A DNA stretch of 64,000 bases. Origin: Escherichia coli (GTDB taxonomy: Bacteria; Pseudomonadota; Gammaproteobacteria; Enterobacterales; Enterobacteriaceae). The notes below the pieces were generated by a model. The model ran no database searches and was not told the DNA's origin. It saw only the letters and a program-made list of their open reading frames with translations. This document shows, in pieces, positions 26,807 through 63,566 of this stretch. Both the position numbers and the translations under genes were made by a program. Within the stretch, counting starts at the first letter, position 1, and each line of letters starts with the position of its first letter. The stretch lies in NCBI RefSeq assembly GCF_048403405.1, contig NZ_CP183135.1. One strand, given 5' to 3'.

Positions 26807-28776
26807 TTACCACTGATAACGGGTATAAAGACTGACAGTTCTGCCTGAAAGCGGCACTCCTTTGCCATTCATGGCAAGCTTGTTGAAGGCATTATCCAGA
26901 GCCACTGATGCCTCAAAGCCTTTAACACTTACAGGCTTATAAGACAGTGAAAAGGAATGTACGGCATAGCCAGCCTGATGGGGATCGCCTTTTTTCACAT
27001 GCGTGGCTGCTGCCGAAAGTTCAGCACGCCATCCGGCAGAAACTCCTCCATGACCAACAGGTATACTTATGTCACTGATGAGTGTGTCAGGATTGCCGGA
27101 GCCCAGCCATTCCCTGCTGCTGGCATCCATACTTTCCGTGCGGTTATAAGAAAGCATCCAGTCAAAATAATCAGACTGGTAATTTCCCTGCATATCCCAT
27201 CCCCAGATACGGGCCCGGGATACATTATAAGAATAAGAACGCATCCGTTTCATATCCACGCGCGTGGCAATATAGTTTCTGGCATCCGTTCCGAAATATC
27301 CGCCTTTCAACTGCAGCCGATCATTGCCTGTAAGCAGGCCGTCCAGTTGAATACCTGCGCCAATCTCACGGGTAATGTTATTTTCTGGTTTCAGATTAAG
27401 GTTAGGTACCCAGTAATTGGGTTTACCCTTGCGGTAAAAATGTACATCATCCCTGTACATTTCTGCCATTGTGGGGGCACGGAATGCAGAGGATATGGAG
27501 CCGTACATCATCAGCCAGTCTGTCGGTGAGACTGAAATCGCCGCCCTTGGGGACAGGCGTTCGGCTTTCAGTTCTCCGGCACGGGGATTGAAGCTCTTGT
27601 ACCGGTCATAGCGGGAACCGACGATAATGTTAACCGGGTAGCTTTTCATTGTCATTTCATCCTGGAAATACAACGATGTAAAGTCAATGTTTCCTTCCGG
27701 ATATAGTGTGGCAGAGCCTTCTGGCTTCTGCTGCTGACGGTAATATTCAGCGCCATAACTTAACTGATGGGCTCCCGGAAAAATCAGAGTATGACTCCTG
27801 TTGACAACATTAACACCGGAGGTTCTGTTGTTTCTCCATTCTGCCGTTTTGTTGTGACCGTTTGTCTTGATAGTGATATCACTGAGATATAAAGTTGACT
27901 TTACATTGATGAGGCTGTTATCCACAGGAGCGTACTGGTACCAGAACTGTACGTCATTTTGTACTGTTTTTCTGTCACGCAGGCCGCTGTCACCATGTGT
28001 CTGAGTGGGATTGCCCGGTTCAGTGGTGTTATTCCGGTAGAGACGCAAGCTGGCACCTGCTTTGTTACTGTCTGTTATACCGACAGAGCCTTTCGCAAAC
28101 AGGGCTGCAGGTTTTTCCTTGTTAGGTGCGCGCTCACCATCACTTTGATAGATATTACCTCTTTTACGCATAATGACAGAAAGGAGCGCATCTGTTTTTC
28201 CGGTTTTACCGAACCAGGTGAGCCCCGAGCCTGTGCTGTGGTCACCACTGGCGATATTTCCCCACAGACTTAAACCGTTTGTCTCTCCGGGGGAAGGAAA
28301 TCTGCTGCATCGGCAGTTCTGAAGTCCACAACACCTCCCAGCCCGCCACTGCCGTACAGACTGGAGTTTGGTCCGCGGACAACTTCGATACGTTTGACGA
28401 GTGCCGGATCCAGATAAGTGCCACTGCTTTTTGCCATGTCACTGAGTTGACGGATGCCGTCAACAAGAACAAGTACCCCGCTTTTGTCATAGCCGCGTAG
28501 ATTAAAGGTCTGCCCATTGGTCCGTCCTGCACCAGTCTGGCTGAGACCGGCAACACCTTTCAGCATGCCGGCTGATGTGACCGCATTCTGACTCCATGGC
28601 GTGTCATTCGTGACGACACTGACCATTGACGGCGTTTCAAATACCGTGTTCTGATTTCCTGTCGCGACAACGGTGATTGTATCTTTAGCCATAGAAGAAT
28701 GACTGGTCTCTGCCTGTAACCCTATCGGGAGTATGATTAATGTACAAATGACGTTTCTGATTACGTTCATATACAT
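26807..28776 (-). CDS. TonB-dependent outer-membrane receptor; reading frame broken once at a G5/C5 run (28289-28293)
   Basis: N-terminal part 28270..28776 carries signal peptide and plug domain; C-terminal part ends ...LYTRYQW; the two frames join cleanly across the homopolymer. Confidence 0.7.
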
Positions 28777-28797
28777 GCGAAAATATATGTTAATATT

Positions 28798-28815
28798 GAT
28801 ATGTTATAACATATC
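28798..28815. promoter_or_regulatory. 18-bp perfect palindrome GATATGTTATAACATATC in the receptor upstream region; possible metalloregulator operator
   Basis: Perfect dyad symmetry 22-39 nt upstream of the receptor start codon; AT-rich, Fur/Zur-box-like. Confidence 0.3.
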
Positions 28816-28966
28816 ATTTTATTAATGCAACCCTGATCACGCAGCGTTCAGTGATAACCAGTGAATAGCGACTCTAATACCCGGTCGCTCTGCAATGTAT
28901 CAGCGCCTGCGACCGATGCTATGGATATTGATTTTTCTACCGATAAAGAACCAGCAATACGGAATT

Positions 28967-29495
28967 TAGACTGGCCCCCTGAATCTCCAGACAACCAATA
29001 TCACTTAAATAAGTGATAGTCTTAATACTAGTTTTTAGACTAGTCATTGGAGAACAGATGATTGATGTCTTAGGACCGGAGAAACGCAGACGGCGTACTA
29101 CACAGGAAAAGATCGCTATTGTTCAGCAGAGCTTTGAACCGGGAATGACGGTCTCCCTTGTTGCCCGGCAACACGGTGTGGCAGCCAGCCAGTTATTTCT
29201 CTGGCGCAAGCAATACCAGGAGGGAAGTCTTACTGCTGTGGCCGCAGGAGAACAGGTCGTTCCTGCCTCTGAACTTGCTGCTGCCATGAAGCAGATTAAA
29301 GAACTCCAGCGCCTGCTCGGCAAAAAAACGATGGAAAATGAACTCCTTAAAGAAGCCGTTGAATATGGGCGTGCAAAAAAGTGGATAGCGCACGCGCCCT
29401 TATTGCCCGGGGATGGGGAGTAAGCTTAGTCAGCCGTTGTCTCCGGGTGTCGCGTGCGCAGTTGCACGTCATTCTCAGACGAACCGATGACTGGA
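28967..29495 (+). mobile_element. IS2 left-end fragment (~529 bp)
   Basis: IS2 terminus TAGACTGGCCCCCTGAATCTCCAGACAACC... at 28967; similarity ends after ...RRTDDW near 29495. Confidence 0.85.
29058..29423 (+). CDS. insC: IS2 OrfA (InsC)
   Basis: [56 protein letters not shown]... 121 aa. Confidence 0.85.
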
Positions 29496-60842: not shown

Positions 60843-60844
60843 TC

Positions 60845-61100
60845 TGAGGGTTATCTGTCACAGATTTGAGGGTGGTTCGTCACATTTATTCTGACCTACT
60901 GAGGGTAATTTGTCACAGTTTTGCTGTTTCCTTCAGCCTGCATGGATTTTCTCATACTTTTTGAACTGTAATTTTTAAGGAAGCCAAATTTGAGGGCAGT
61001 TTGTCACAGTTGATTTCCTTCTCTTTCCCTTCGTCATGTGACCTGATATCGGGGGTTAGTTCGTCATCATTGATGAGGGTTGATTATCACAGTTTATTAC
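60845..61100. repeat. incC iterons of RepFIA
   Basis: Five direct repeats with core TGAGGG-n-TTTGTCACAG / TCGTCAC downstream of repE. Confidence 0.6.
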
Positions 61101-61420
61101 TCTGAATTGGCTATCCGCGTGTGTACCTCTACCTGGAGTTTTTCCCACGGTGGATATTTCTTCTTGCGCTGAGCGTAAGAGCTATCTGACAGAACAGTTC
61201 TTCTTTGCTTCCTCGCCAGTTCGCTCGCTATGCTCGGTTACACGGCTGCGGCGAGCGCTAGTGATAATAAGTGACTGAGGTATGTGCTCTTCTTATCTCC
61301 TTTTGTAGTGTTGCTCTTATTTTAAACAACTTTGCGGTTTTTTGATGACTTTGCGATTTTGTTGTTGCTTTGCAGTAAATTGCAAGATTTAATAAAAAAA
61401 CGCAAAGCAATGATTAAAGG

Positions 61421-62596
61421 ATGTTCAGAATGAAACTCATGGAAACACTTAACCAGTGCATAAACGCTGGTCATGAAATGACGAAGGCTATCGCCATTGC
61501 ACAGTTTAATGATGACAGCCCGGAAGCGAGGAAAATAACCCGGCGCTGGAGAATAGGTGAAGCAGCGGATTTAGTTGGGGTTTCTTCTCAGGCTATCAGA
61601 GATGCCGAGAAAGCAGGGCGACTACCGCACCCGGATATGGAAATTCGAGGACGGGTTGAGCAACGTGTTGGTTATACAATTGAACAAATTAATCATATGC
61701 GTGATGTGTTTGGTACGCGATTGCGACGTGCTGAAGACGTATTTCCACCGGTGATCGGGGTTGCTGCCCATAAAGGTGGCGTTTACAAAACCTCAGTTTC
61801 TGTTCATCTTGCTCAGGATCTGGCTCTGAAGGGGCTACGTGTTTTGCTCGTGGAAGGTAACGACCCCCAGGGAACAGCCTCAATGTATCACGGATGGGTA
61901 CCAGATCTTCATATTCATGCAGAAGACACTCTCCTGCCTTTCTATCTTGGGGAAAAGGACGATGTCACTTATGCAATAAAGCCCACTTGCTGGCCGGGGC
62001 TTGACATTATTCCTTCCTGTCTGGCTCTGCACCGTATTGAAACTGAGTTAATGGGCAAATTTGATGAAGGTAAACTGCCCACCGATCCACACCTGATGCT
62101 CCGACTGGCCATTGAAACTGTTGCTCATGACTATGATGTCATAGTTATTGACAGCGCGCCTAACCTGGGTATCGGCACGATTAATGTCGTATGTGCTGCT
62201 GATGTGCTGATTGTTCCCACGCCTGCTGAGTTGTTTGACTACACCTCCGCACTGCAGTTTTTCGATATGCTTCGTGATCTGCTCAAGAACGTTGATCTTA
62301 AAGGGTTCGAGCCTGATGTACGTATTTTGCTTACCAAATACAGCAATAGTAATGGCTCTCAGTCCCCGTGGATGGAGGAGCAAATTCGGGATGCCTGGGG
62401 AAGCATGGTTCTAAAAAATGTTGTACGTGAAACGGATGAAGTTGGTAAAGGTCAGATCCGGATGAGAACTGTTTTTGAACAGGCCATTGATCAACGCTCT
62501 TCAACTGGTGCCTGGAGAAATGCTCTTTCTATTTGGGAACCTGTCTGCAATGAAATTTTCGATCGTCTGATTAAACCACGCTGGGAGATTAGATAA
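61421..62596 (+). CDS. sopA: partition ATPase SopA (ParA family); the native start may be the in-frame ATG at 61430
   Basis: ...[28 protein letters not shown]...; deviant Walker [12 protein letters not shown]. Confidence 0.9.
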
Positions 62597-63566
62597 TGAA
62601 GCGTGCGCCTGTTATTCCAAAACATACGCTCAATACTCAACCGGTTGAAGATACTTCGTTATCGACACCAGCTGCCCCGATGGTGGATTCGTTAATTGCG
62701 CGCGTAGGAGTAATGGCTCGCGGTAATGCCATTACTTTGCCTGTATGTGGTCGGGATGTGAAGTTTACTCTTGAAGTGCTCCGGGGTGATAGTGTTGAGA
62801 AGACCTCTCGGGTATGGTCAGGTAATGAACGTGACCAGGAGCTGCTTACTGAGGACGCACTGGATGATCTCATCCCTTCTTTTCTACTGACTGGTCAACA
62901 GACACCGGCGTTCGGTCGAAGAGTATCTGGTGTCATAGAAATTGCCGATGGGAGTCGCCGTCGTAAAGCTGCTGCACTTACCGAAAGTGATTATCGTGTT
63001 CTGGTTGGCGAGCTGGATGATGAGCAGATGGCTGCATTATCCAGATTGGGTAACGATTATCGCCCAACAAGTGCTTATGAACGTGGTCAGCGTTATGCAA
63101 GCCGATTGCAGAATGAATTTGCTGGAAATATTTCTGCGCTGGCTGATGCGGAAAATATTTCACGTAAGATTATTACCCGCTGTATCAACACAGCCAAATT
63201 GCCTAAATCAGTTGTTGCTCTTTTTCTCACCCCGGTGAACTATCTGCCCGGTCAGGTGATGCACTTCAAAAAGCCTTTACAGATAAAGAGGAATTACTTA
63301 AGCAGCAGGCATCTAACCTTCATGAGCAGAAAAAAGCTGGGGTGATATTTGAAGCTGAAGAAGTTATCACTCTTTTAACTTCTGTGCTTAAAACGTCATC
63401 TGCATCAAGAACTAGTTTAAGCTCACGACATCAGTTTGCTCCTGGAGCGACAGTATTGTATAAGGGCGATAAAATGGTGCTTAACCTGGACAGGTCTCGT
63501 GTTCCAACTGAGTGTATAGAGAAAATTGAGGCCATTCTTAAGGAACTTGAAAAGCCAGCACCCTGA
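62596..63566 (+). pseudogene. sopB: partition protein SopB with -1 frameshift in a T run (T5 at 63221-63225, T6 expected)
   Basis: Track ORFs 62596..63345 and 63342..63566 together give SopB; one extra T restores ...[23 protein letters not shown]... Confidence 0.8.

What the first reader, a model, noticed from the sequence alone, without database searches (positions are those of the whole stretch)
28289..63225. Four genes are broken by single-base indels at homopolymer runs: likely sequencing artefacts
Seen in sequence: the TonB-dependent receptor (G5 at 28289-28293), the island membrane protein (A7 runs near 32085-32107), the OLD-family ATPase (C5 at 55933-55937) and sopB (T5 at 63221-63225) each split into two overlapping ORFs that rejoin cleanly with a one-base change inside a homopolymer. 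Inference: this pattern is typical of long-read consensus errors, so these should not be taken as real pseudogenes without read evidence. Other lesions here (IS insertions, the 10-bp duplication in IS66 tnpC, the 11-bp deletion in IS1 copy 3) are not homopolymer-associated and look real.
Basis: partly seen in the sequence, partly recalled or inferred. Interest (0 to 1): 0.45.

Follow-up and report, generated by a model that had tools for sequence, protein, structure and literature searches.

The report
Three sequencing-error frameshifts, one real
Four plasmid genes look broken by a missing base in a run of identical letters; three breaks are almost certainly Nanopore consensus errors and the fourth is a real inherited variant, so nothing here is biologically new.

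Summary
All four one-base homopolymer contractions are in the sequence at the stated coordinates. Each splits a gene that is intact in about 97-99% of related plasmid records.

The window belongs to a ~169-kb IncF NDM-5 plasmid lineage from Taiwan. Its nearest public relatives are Nanopore-only Flye assemblies with no polishing step described.

G5 (TonB-dependent receptor), C5 (gajA, the OLD-family ATPase) and T5 (sopB) are best read as consensus errors:
- They switch on and off among near-identical sibling plasmids, including isolates of one clone from one patient, with 0-1 SNPs alongside.
- Every such change shortens the run.
- The cleanest sibling (strain 613) and a separately submitted assembly (2020N08-094) agree on G6, C6 and T6.
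- Worldwide, these variants are 5-36 times rarer in contigs of 10-50 kb than in contigs of 50 kb or more.
- Other carriers often have further homopolymer deletions nearby.

A7 in the membrane-protein gene behaves differently. Its share is a flat ~1.35% in every contig-size class. It is present in both clean lineage members and in clean assemblies from other countries. It is most likely a real allele.

Raw reads were not available, so this remains inference.

The parts
26807..28776 (-). TonB-dependent hemoglobin/transferrin/lactoferrin-family receptor gene. It is 656 aa when intact and is split here into 168-aa and 454-aa pieces.
   Evidence: ORFs, translation. The intact 1971-bp CDS (WP_001496335.1) is annotated in relatives. 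PGAP marks it 'frameshifted' in the siblings that carry G5.
28289..28293 (.). Site 1: G5 run where relatives have G6. Probable consensus under-call.
   Evidence: G5 is in 14 of 753 PLSDB records and 16 of 1146 E. coli complete-genome records. Nine of 10 other carriers have extra homopolymer deletions within 2 kb.
31138..32306 (-). Hypothetical membrane-protein gene. It is 389 aa when intact (WP_001072358.1) and is split here into a 69-aa N-terminal piece and a 282/290-aa C-terminal piece.
   Evidence: The intact CDS is annotated. The short forms WP_224169960.1 and WP_016245172.1 are annotated in siblings.
32101..32107 (.). Site 2: A7 run where most relatives have A8. Probably a real inherited allele.
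   Evidence: A7 is in 18 of 765 PLSDB records. Its share is flat at 1.34% / 1.36% / 1.36% across contig-size classes. It is present in the clean assemblies 613 and 2020N08-094, in clean contigs of a divergent backbone, and in S9 from Sweden.
55191..56755 (-). gajA, the OLD-family ATPase/TOPRIM nuclease of a Gabija system. It is 521 aa when intact and is split here into 293-aa and 263-aa ORFs.
   Evidence: PADLOC GajA match at E 6.5e-102 over the full length. The intact WP_001128474.1 is annotated. It is marked 'frameshifted' in siblings.
55933..55937 (.). Site 3: C5 run where relatives have C6. Probable consensus under-call.
   Evidence: C5 is in 19 of the 720 closely matching PLSDB records. 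Five of 8 other carriers have further homopolymer deletions within 2 kb.
54184..55206 (-). gajB, a short UvrD-like helicase of 340 aa that overlaps the end of gajA. It is intact in the window.
   Evidence: PADLOC GajB match at E 1.9e-47. It is broken by another C-run contraction in sibling 571.
62596..63566 (+). sopB, the ParB-type partition gene of the FIA replicon. It is 323 aa when intact; here the frame ends early and gives 249 aa.
   Evidence: The intact WP_000817031.1 is annotated. The truncated form is annotated as protein WP_367776538.1 in 605 and CRE78 and as a 'frameshifted' pseudogene in CRE389. The end coordinate is inferred from the 972-bp intact CDS.
63221..63225 (.). Site 4: T5 run where relatives have T6. 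Probable consensus under-call.
   Evidence: T5 is in 23 of 2314 PLSDB records and 23 of 2232 E. coli records. Fifteen of those 23 E. coli records come from three project series.

Best explanation
The window is part of an IncFIA/FIB/FII NDM-5 plasmid of a lineage circulating in Taiwan in an E. coli clone. Its closest public relatives come from a study that used Nanopore R10.4.1 reads assembled with Flye, with no short reads and no polishing step described. At three six-base runs the assembly consensus has dropped one base: G6 in the TonB-dependent receptor gene, C6 in gajA and T6 in sopB. These three genes are therefore most probably intact in the real plasmid and should not be called pseudogenes. 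The fourth contraction, A8 to A7 in the 389-aa membrane-protein gene, is most probably a real frameshift allele inherited by this lineage; the same allele also occurs on other plasmid backbones. Shown directly: the one-base differences, their distribution among relatives, the sequencing method of the sibling study, and the dependence on contig size. Inferred: that the window's own assembly used the same or a similar pipeline, and that contig size stands in for sequencing technology.
For: 1. Method. Strains 571, 572, 605, 613 and 774 belong to PMC12379366: Nanopore R10.4.1, Guppy, Flye 2.9 with --plasmids and --meta. Illumina, Medaka and polishing are not mentioned. A benchmark paper reports more frameshift pseudogenes in ONT-only than in Illumina assemblies.
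2. Discordance without SNPs. Over window 26.5-64 kb, the window and seven siblings vary at 8 homopolymer runs but at only 2 SNP positions, and every variant shortens the run. Strains 605 and 572 are one clone from one patient. Their plasmids differ by 0 SNPs and 4 one-base indels over 87.5 kb. 605 vs 613: 0 SNPs and 4 indels, all shorter in 605. 571 vs 613, also one patient and clone: 1 SNP and 4 indels, all shorter in 571. With an outgroup, the T-run, the iucB C8 run and SNP 55417 are mutually incompatible by the four-gamete test.
3. Independent agreement. The separately submitted Taiwan assembly 2020N08-094 matches 613 over 49.8 kb except for one 6-bp repeat unit. Both have A7, G6, C6 and T6.
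4. Dependence on contig size. The share of the exact truncated protein among carriers, for contigs of 10-50 kb versus >=50 kb, is: T5 0.12% vs 0.57% (odds ratio 4.8, p 4e-7); G5 0.12% vs 2.8% (23.8, p 1e-9); C5 0.034% vs 1.2% (35.8, p 1e-19); A7 1.36% vs 1.36% (1.0).
5. Noisy company. Extra homopolymer deletions lie within 2 kb in 9 of 10 other G5 carriers, 5 of 8 C5 carriers and 4 of 12 T5 carriers.
6. Clustering by project and co-occurrence. Fifteen of 23 T5 records in complete E. coli genomes come from three series. Several unrelated records carry two or three of the variants together. Variant carriers are enriched for GenBank-only accessions, for example 12 of 23 vs 2 of 37 for T5.
Against: G5 (6 of 8) and C5 (7 of 8) are the majority state in the lineage, which is also what inheritance would give. 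C5, G5 and T5 form a nested ladder (p about 0.05 under independent errors), and the ladder rank does not track the other errors in each assembly. Only 3 of the 8 G/C six-base runs in the region vary among the assemblies, and just two of those (sites 1 and 3) are shortened in most of them, so the error would have to be strongly site-specific. The chromosomes of 605, 572, CRE389 and CRE78 show no indels over 25 kb, and 605 has no frameshifted gene in 50 kb, although that stretch holds only three G/C runs of 6. Eight of 12 other T5 carriers look clean within 2 kb. The window's own source record, its reads and its pipeline were not identified. Contig size is only a proxy for technology. For A7, the one sibling with A8 (CRE78) needs either a one-base insertion error or a reversion.
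Confidence: 0.8

Rival explanations
1. All four contractions, A7 included, are consensus errors. The true plasmid has G6, A8, C6 and T6, and all four genes are intact.
For: A8 is the longest class of run in the region and so the most error-prone in principle. Sibling CRE78 has A8. Six of the 10 longest A7-carrying contigs are very noisy assemblies. A7 carriers in PLSDB are mildly enriched for GenBank-only records (4 of 18 vs 2 of 42, p 0.06).
Against: The A7 share is identical (1.34-1.36%) in all contig-size classes, unlike the other three sites. The two cleanest lineage members, 613 and the separately submitted 2020N08-094, both have A7 while having G6, C6 and T6. Clean contigs of a divergent backbone also carry A7, as does S9 from Sweden, which is otherwise identical to the window over its aligned ~29 kb apart from one SNP and G6 at site 1. 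None of the other A/T runs of 8 in the region varies among the eight assemblies. CRE78 is the noisiest sibling.
Confidence: 0.1
2. G5 and C5, and perhaps T5, are real frameshift mutations that accumulated stepwise in the 169-kb sub-lineage and truly inactivated gajA, the receptor and sopB. On this view 613, 572 and 2020N08-094 branched off earlier.
For: G5 and C5 are the majority state among siblings and nest as C5, then G5, then T5 with no conflict among the three (p about 0.05). The chromosomes of the same assemblies are clean over 25-50 kb. Loss of a defence nuclease or of a receptor is biologically plausible (my inference).
Against: This requires isolates of one clone in one patient (605/572, 571/613) to differ at several run lengths with 0-1 SNPs over 47-87 kb. 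The T-run conflicts with SNP 55417. The same three runs are hit in unrelated plasmids from other long-read projects and are almost absent from 10-50 kb contigs. All changes are deletions.
Confidence: 0.07
3. The runs are truly hypermutable, either through slipped-strand switching or through mixed plasmid populations in a cell line. Different isolates would then really differ, or carry mixtures, and the consensus would report whichever form is in the majority.
For: The same runs vary repeatedly across backbones and projects. The genes affected, a receptor and a defence nuclease, are of kinds that are phase-variable in some other bacteria (my background knowledge).
Against: Runs of 5-6 bases are short for high-frequency slippage (background knowledge). 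Only contractions are seen, never expansions beyond the consensus length. Real switching should appear equally in short-read assemblies, but the variants are 5-36 times depleted in the 10-50 kb class. Carriers are often globally noisy assemblies.
Confidence: 0.03

Closest known systems
Homopolymer under-calling in unpolished long-read (Nanopore or PacBio) consensus assemblies
   Same: The changes are one-base contractions inside homopolymer runs that create apparent frameshift pseudogenes. They are discordant between replicate assemblies of the same replicon. They cluster by sequencing project and are depleted in short-read-sized contigs. The sibling study used ONT-only Flye assemblies. A benchmark reports excess pseudogenes in ONT-only assemblies.
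   Different: The errors sit at a few specific 6-base runs with high recurrence (4-7 of 8 assemblies). They are not spread over all long runs, and runs of 7-8 elsewhere in the window are stable. Read-level evidence is missing.
Real frameshift pseudogene alleles arising by replication slippage
   Same: Site 2 (A7) behaves like one. It is shared by lineage members and by other backbones, its frequency does not depend on contig size, and it is already in RefSeq as the shorter proteins WP_224169960.1 and WP_016245172.1.
   Different: Sites 1, 3 and 4 fail the tests of inheritance and technology-independence.
Gabija anti-phage system (GajA OLD-family ATPase/TOPRIM nuclease plus GajB UvrD-like helicase)
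   Same: The 'OLD-family ATPase' and the overlapping downstream helicase gene match PADLOC GajA (E 6.5e-102) and GajB (E 1.9e-47) models over their full lengths. Pfam families AAA_15 and OLD-like_TOPRIM are recorded for the intact protein.
   Different: GajB is a short form of 340 aa. Activity was not tested. The apparent break in gajA is probably not real.
F-plasmid SopB (ParB-type partition protein)
   Same: The intact relative is the 323-aa protein that the sources name SopB/SOPB_ECOLI. It lies directly after sopA and repE.
   Different: The window's 249-aa product is a truncation caused by the T5 call. RefSeq now holds it as WP_367776538.1.

Membership tests
Long-read homopolymer consensus error | The difference from trusted relatives is a one-base length change inside a homopolymer, with the flanks identical | tested here: met
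   All four sites.
Long-read homopolymer consensus error | The assembly was made from long reads without short-read or model-based polishing | tested here: inconclusive
   True for the sibling strains 571, 572, 605, 613 and 774 (PMC12379366). The window's own source record was not identified, so for the window this is inferred from near-identity.
Long-read homopolymer consensus error | Replicate assemblies of the same replicon or clone disagree at the site while agreeing at nearly all other positions | tested here: met
   Met for sites 1, 3 and 4: 605 vs 572, 571 vs 613 and 605 vs 613 differ by 0-1 SNPs and 4 one-base indels. For site 2 only CRE78 disagrees.
Long-read homopolymer consensus error | The variant is depleted in short-read assemblies relative to long-read assemblies | tested here: met
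   Tested by proxy, comparing contigs of 10-50 kb with contigs of >=50 kb. Odds ratios are 4.8 (T5), 23.8 (G5) and 35.8 (C5). The feature is not met for A7, with an odds ratio of 1.0.
Long-read homopolymer consensus error | Raw reads show a mixed or strand-biased run length, and accurate reads show the longer run | not testable with these tools
   No read data are available.
Real slippage frameshift allele (pseudogene) | The distribution among relatives fits descent, with no conflict with SNPs or epidemiology | tested here: not met
   Not met for sites 1, 3 and 4. There are same-patient discordances, and the T-run conflicts with SNP 55417. Site 2 fits a single event apart from CRE78.
Real slippage frameshift allele (pseudogene) | The variant occurs at similar frequency whatever the assembly type | tested here: met
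   Met for site 2 only: 1.34% / 1.36% / 1.36%. Not met for sites 1, 3 and 4.
Gabija (GajA/GajB) | An OLD-family ABC-ATPase/TOPRIM protein matches GajA profiles over its full length | tested here: met
   PADLOC PDLC00102: E 6.5e-102, residues 4-518 of 521. Pfam AAA_15 and OLD-like_TOPRIM are on record.
Gabija (GajA/GajB) | An adjacent UvrD-like helicase gene matches GajB profiles | tested here: met
   PADLOC PDLC00148: E 1.9e-47, residues 1-330 of 340. The gene overlaps the end of gajA.
Gabija (GajA/GajB) | The system protects against phage | not testable with these tools
   This needs an experiment.
Phase-variable contingency locus | A long repeat tract changes length in both directions at high frequency, including in accurate data | tested here: not met
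   The runs are only 5-8 bases. Only contractions were seen. The variants are near-absent in the 10-50 kb contig class for sites 1, 3 and 4.

The most novel reading that the evidence does not exclude
The G6, C6 and T6 runs in the receptor gene, gajA and sopB could be real recurrent loss-of-function slippage sites on IncF plasmids. Hospital sub-lineages would then repeatedly and truly switch off a Gabija defence nuclease, a TonB-dependent receptor and a partition protein. The scarcity of these variants in mid-sized contigs would have some other cause.
Probability: 0.05. Interest if true: 0.4.

Novelty: not a real feature. Interest (0 to 1): 0.12.

Why it matters
The value here is data hygiene. 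If the calls are taken at face value, this NDM-5 plasmid would be annotated as lacking a working Gabija nuclease, a heme-type TonB-dependent receptor and SopB. That would distort inferences about phage defence, iron uptake and plasmid stability.

The same artefacts have already entered public resources. RefSeq carries a 249-aa 'SopB' (WP_367776538.1), and that exact sequence is seen on 259 contigs.

Near-identical plasmids from one patient differ only by such one-base indels. This could inflate apparent within-host plasmid evolution or create spurious sub-clusters in trees; that last point is my inference.

The contig-size-class comparison of exact truncated proteins is a cheap, read-free way to separate technology-dependent frameshifts from real alleles. 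It also flagged A7 as a real allele.

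Tried and rejected
1. Frameshift density on the chromosome of sibling 605, as a test of overall assembly noise. There are no frameshifted genes in 50 kb, and 605, 572, CRE389 and CRE78 show no indels over 25 kb. This did not settle anything, because that stretch holds only three G/C runs of 6 against ten true runs of 6 or more in window 26.5-64 kb.
2. Finding the window's own source record. The best match, pCREC605-1, differs by one SNP and lacks the 1.3-kb IS at 14482-15807. 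No listed record is identical.
3. An assembly-quality gradient as the explanation for the nested C5/G5/T5 pattern. The ladder rank does not follow the number of other errors per assembly, so I dropped it in favour of site-specific error propensity.
4. A shared sequence context. The high-recurrence sites have a CT-rich stretch just upstream on the + strand (CTCTCC, ATCTCT, GCTC, CTCCTC). A post-hoc rule caught only 2 of 4 sites, so I report it only as something noticed.
5. GenBank-only accession status as a proxy for RefSeq exclusion. It is significant for sites 1, 3 and 4, but it rests only on the rows listed, and the reason for exclusion is unknown. I treat it as supporting evidence only.
6. 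A literature search for strain 2020N08-094, to learn its sequencing method. Nothing was found.
7. A mismatch-repair mutator host as the explanation. I set this aside because indel events outnumber SNPs about 10 to 2, all indels are deletions, and the plasmid sits in several host clones.

Full report
**What is in the sequence**

Translation in all frames and the ORF list show each of the four genes running on in a different frame across its run. The window is an E. coli IncFIA/FIB/FII plasmid carrying sitABCD, iucABCD-iutA, vapBC, ccdAB, repE and sopAB. Base-by-base alignment to close relatives shows the window is one base shorter at each of the four runs, and that these are its only homopolymer contractions relative to them.

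**How common the short forms are**

I searched 81-base queries centred on each site, so that any single difference drops identity below 99%. In PLSDB the window's form is in 14 of 753 records (G5), 18 of 765 (A7), 19 of 720 closely matching records (C5) and 23 of 2314 (T5). In complete E. coli genomes it is in 16 of 1146 (G5) and 23 of 2232 (T5). Several unrelated records carry two or three of the short forms together: CP022610.1 has three, and nine others have two. Fifteen of the 23 T5 records in E. coli genomes come from three project series.

**Where the window comes from**

The closest records are ~169-kb plasmids from Taiwan:
- pCREC605-1, which differs from the window by 1 SNP over 37.5 kb
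- pCREC774-1, pCREC571-1 and pCREC572-2
- pKP389-2 (strain CRE389) and pKP87-3 (strain CRE78)
- the 143-kb pCREC613-1

The numbered strains belong to PMC12379366. That study used Nanopore R10.4.1 reads, Guppy and Flye 2.9, and mentions no Illumina data and no polishing. The window itself has a 1.3-kb IS that 605 and 572 lack. It therefore comes from another isolate of this lineage. Its own pipeline is inferred, not known.

**The sibling comparison**

Over window 26.5-64 kb, the window and seven siblings vary at eight homopolymer runs but at only two SNP positions. Besides the four sites, the varying runs are C6 at 43229, C8 at 46840, C4 at 48780 and C5 at 54327. Every variant is a contraction relative to outside relatives.

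| Run | Short form in | Long form in |
|---|---|---|
| G-run (site 1) | window, 605, 774, 571, CRE389, CRE78 | 572, 613 |
| C-run (site 3) | all except 613 | 613 |
| T-run (site 4) | window, 605, CRE389, CRE78 | 774, 571, 572, 613 |
| A-run (site 2) | all except CRE78 | CRE78 |

Strains 605 and 572 are one clone from one patient. Their plasmids differ by 0 SNPs and four one-base indels over 87.5 kb. 605 vs 613 gives 0 SNPs and four indels over 47.6 kb. 571 vs 613, again one patient and clone, gives 1 SNP and four indels. In each pair the shorter run is in the same assembly. With an outgroup, the T-run, the iucB C8 run and SNP 55417 are mutually incompatible. Real divergence of this kind, many frameshifts and almost no substitutions within months, is not credible at normal mutation rates (my background knowledge).

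**Independent agreement**

A separately submitted Taiwan assembly, strain 2020N08-094, carries the same lineage sequence. It is identical to 613 over 49.8 kb except for one 6-bp repeat unit. Both have A7, G6, C6, T6 and C8. Its sequencing method is unknown.

**A read-free test of technology dependence**

I looked up the exact truncated proteins and their intact counterparts in the 15-billion-protein collection. I then compared how the blocks that hold them are spread over contig-length classes.

| Variant | <10 kb | 10-50 kb | >=50 kb | Odds ratio, >=50 kb vs 10-50 kb |
|---|---|---|---|---|
| T5 (sopB) | 1.63% | 0.12% | 0.57% | 4.8 (p 4e-7) |
| G5 (receptor) | 8.6% | 0.12% | 2.8% | 23.8 (p 1e-9) |
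| C5 (gajA) | 1.3% | 0.034% | 1.2% | 35.8 (p 1e-19) |
| A7 (membrane protein) | 1.34% | 1.36% | 1.36% | 1.0 |

The 10-50 kb class is what short-read drafts typically give; that is my assumption and I did not verify it. The three Logan contigs I inspected come from one SRA accession series, SRR30896xxx. One of them has two extra homopolymer deletions within 4.5 kb, so at least part of the short class is long-read data. The internal contrast is the point. Three variants depend on assembly type and A7 does not.

**Company the variants keep**

Within 2 kb of the site, 9 of 10 other G5 carriers, 5 of 8 C5 carriers and 4 of 12 T5 carriers have further homopolymer deletions. Among A7 carriers there are two groups. 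Four are clean contigs of a divergent backbone, with 33-58 substitutions over ~4 kb. Six are very noisy assemblies. A7 is also present in S9 from Sweden, which is otherwise nearly identical to the window.

**What counts against the artefact reading**

- G5 and C5 are the majority state in the lineage.
- C5, G5 and T5 nest without conflict (p about 0.05 under independence).
- Only three of the eight G/C six-base runs in the region vary among the assemblies, and just two of them (sites 1 and 3) are shortened in most assemblies, so the error must be strongly site-specific.
- The chromosomes of the same assemblies are clean over 25-50 kb. However, that stretch has very few G/C runs of 6 or more.

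The recurrence of the same sites in unrelated long-read projects fits site-specific error hot-spots.

**Conclusion**

Sites 1, 3 and 4 are most probably consensus under-calls. I put this at about 0.85-0.9 each. The TonB-dependent receptor, gajA and sopB should be treated as intact pending read evidence. Site 2 is most probably a real allele (about 0.8). That allele is already in RefSeq as shorter proteins. The OLD-family ATPase and its neighbouring helicase form a Gabija system by PADLOC profiles. Nothing here is new biology; the value is as a caution about unpolished long-read assemblies.

Noticed in passing
window 54184-56755 (- strand): The 'OLD-family ATPase' and the overlapping helicase gene are a Gabija anti-phage pair. 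PADLOC gives GajA at E 6.5e-102 and GajB at E 1.9e-47, with a short 340-aa GajB. The pair sits next to vapBC and ccdAB.
   Followed up: partly
window 14482-15807: A 1326-bp insertion encodes a 334-aa IS110-family transposase. From memory it resembles IS5075/IS4321. It lies at the end of a Tn3-family transposase gene. It is absent from siblings 605 and 572 and from plasmid S9, so the window comes from a different isolate.
   Followed up: partly
window 55417: A G/A SNP inside gajA (Ala in the window, Val in the others) is shared only with pCREC774-1. It is one of only two SNP positions among eight lineage members over 37.5 kb, and it conflicts with the T-run state.
   Followed up: partly
window 49158-50435 (iucD): PGAP marks iucD 'frameshifted' in every E. 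coli-genome relative I fetched, including the clean assemblies 613 and 2020N08-094. The window has an uninterrupted 425-aa ORF and does not differ from those records there. This is either an old shared change at the gene's end or a mismatch with the annotation model.
   Followed up: no
window 46840-46847 (iucB C8 run), 48780 (C4), 43229 (C6), 54327 (C5, gajB): Further runs are contracted in one or more sibling assemblies but not in the window. PGAP calls iucB, iucC and gajB 'frameshifted' in those records.
   Followed up: yes
window 28282-28288, 55926-55932, 63217-63220; L006 38766-38772: All four high-recurrence error sites have a CT-rich stretch immediately upstream on the + strand (CTCTCC, ATCTCT, GCTC, CTCCTC). 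This could be a basecalling context effect. It was defined post hoc and a simple rule caught only 2 of 4 sites.
   Followed up: partly
window 24814 and 24981 (IS100 istB); L003: The FDAARGOS_433 plasmid has its own one-base contractions (G4 to G3, C6 to C5) in both IS100 copies, and istB is missing from its gene table. Older reference-grade records may carry the same class of error.
   Followed up: no
sopB product, window 62596-63345: RefSeq holds the 249-aa truncated SopB as a normal protein (WP_367776538.1), while another sibling has the same sequence marked as a pseudogene. The exact sequence occurs on 259 contigs. A protein record probably derived from an artefact is spreading.
   Followed up: partly
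L060 (NZ_CM132303.1 402877-452678): In strain 2020N08-094 the whole plasmid backbone, including repE, sopAB and the repB-family gene, lies inside a 5.03-Mb record labelled chromosome. This is either plasmid integration or a mis-join.
   Followed up: no
L008 46122-46127 vs L060: The only difference between 613 and 2020N08-094 over 49.8 kb is one 6-bp CTGCTA repeat unit. It lies outside the window.
   Followed up: no
PMC12379366, plasmid tree and sub-clusters: The study groups the IncFIA plasmids of 605, 505, 774, 700, 624 and 571 apart from those of 572, 580 and others. Yet 605 and 572 differ only by four one-base indels over 87.5 kb. Part of that structure may reflect consensus errors or differences outside the regions I compared.
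   Followed up: no
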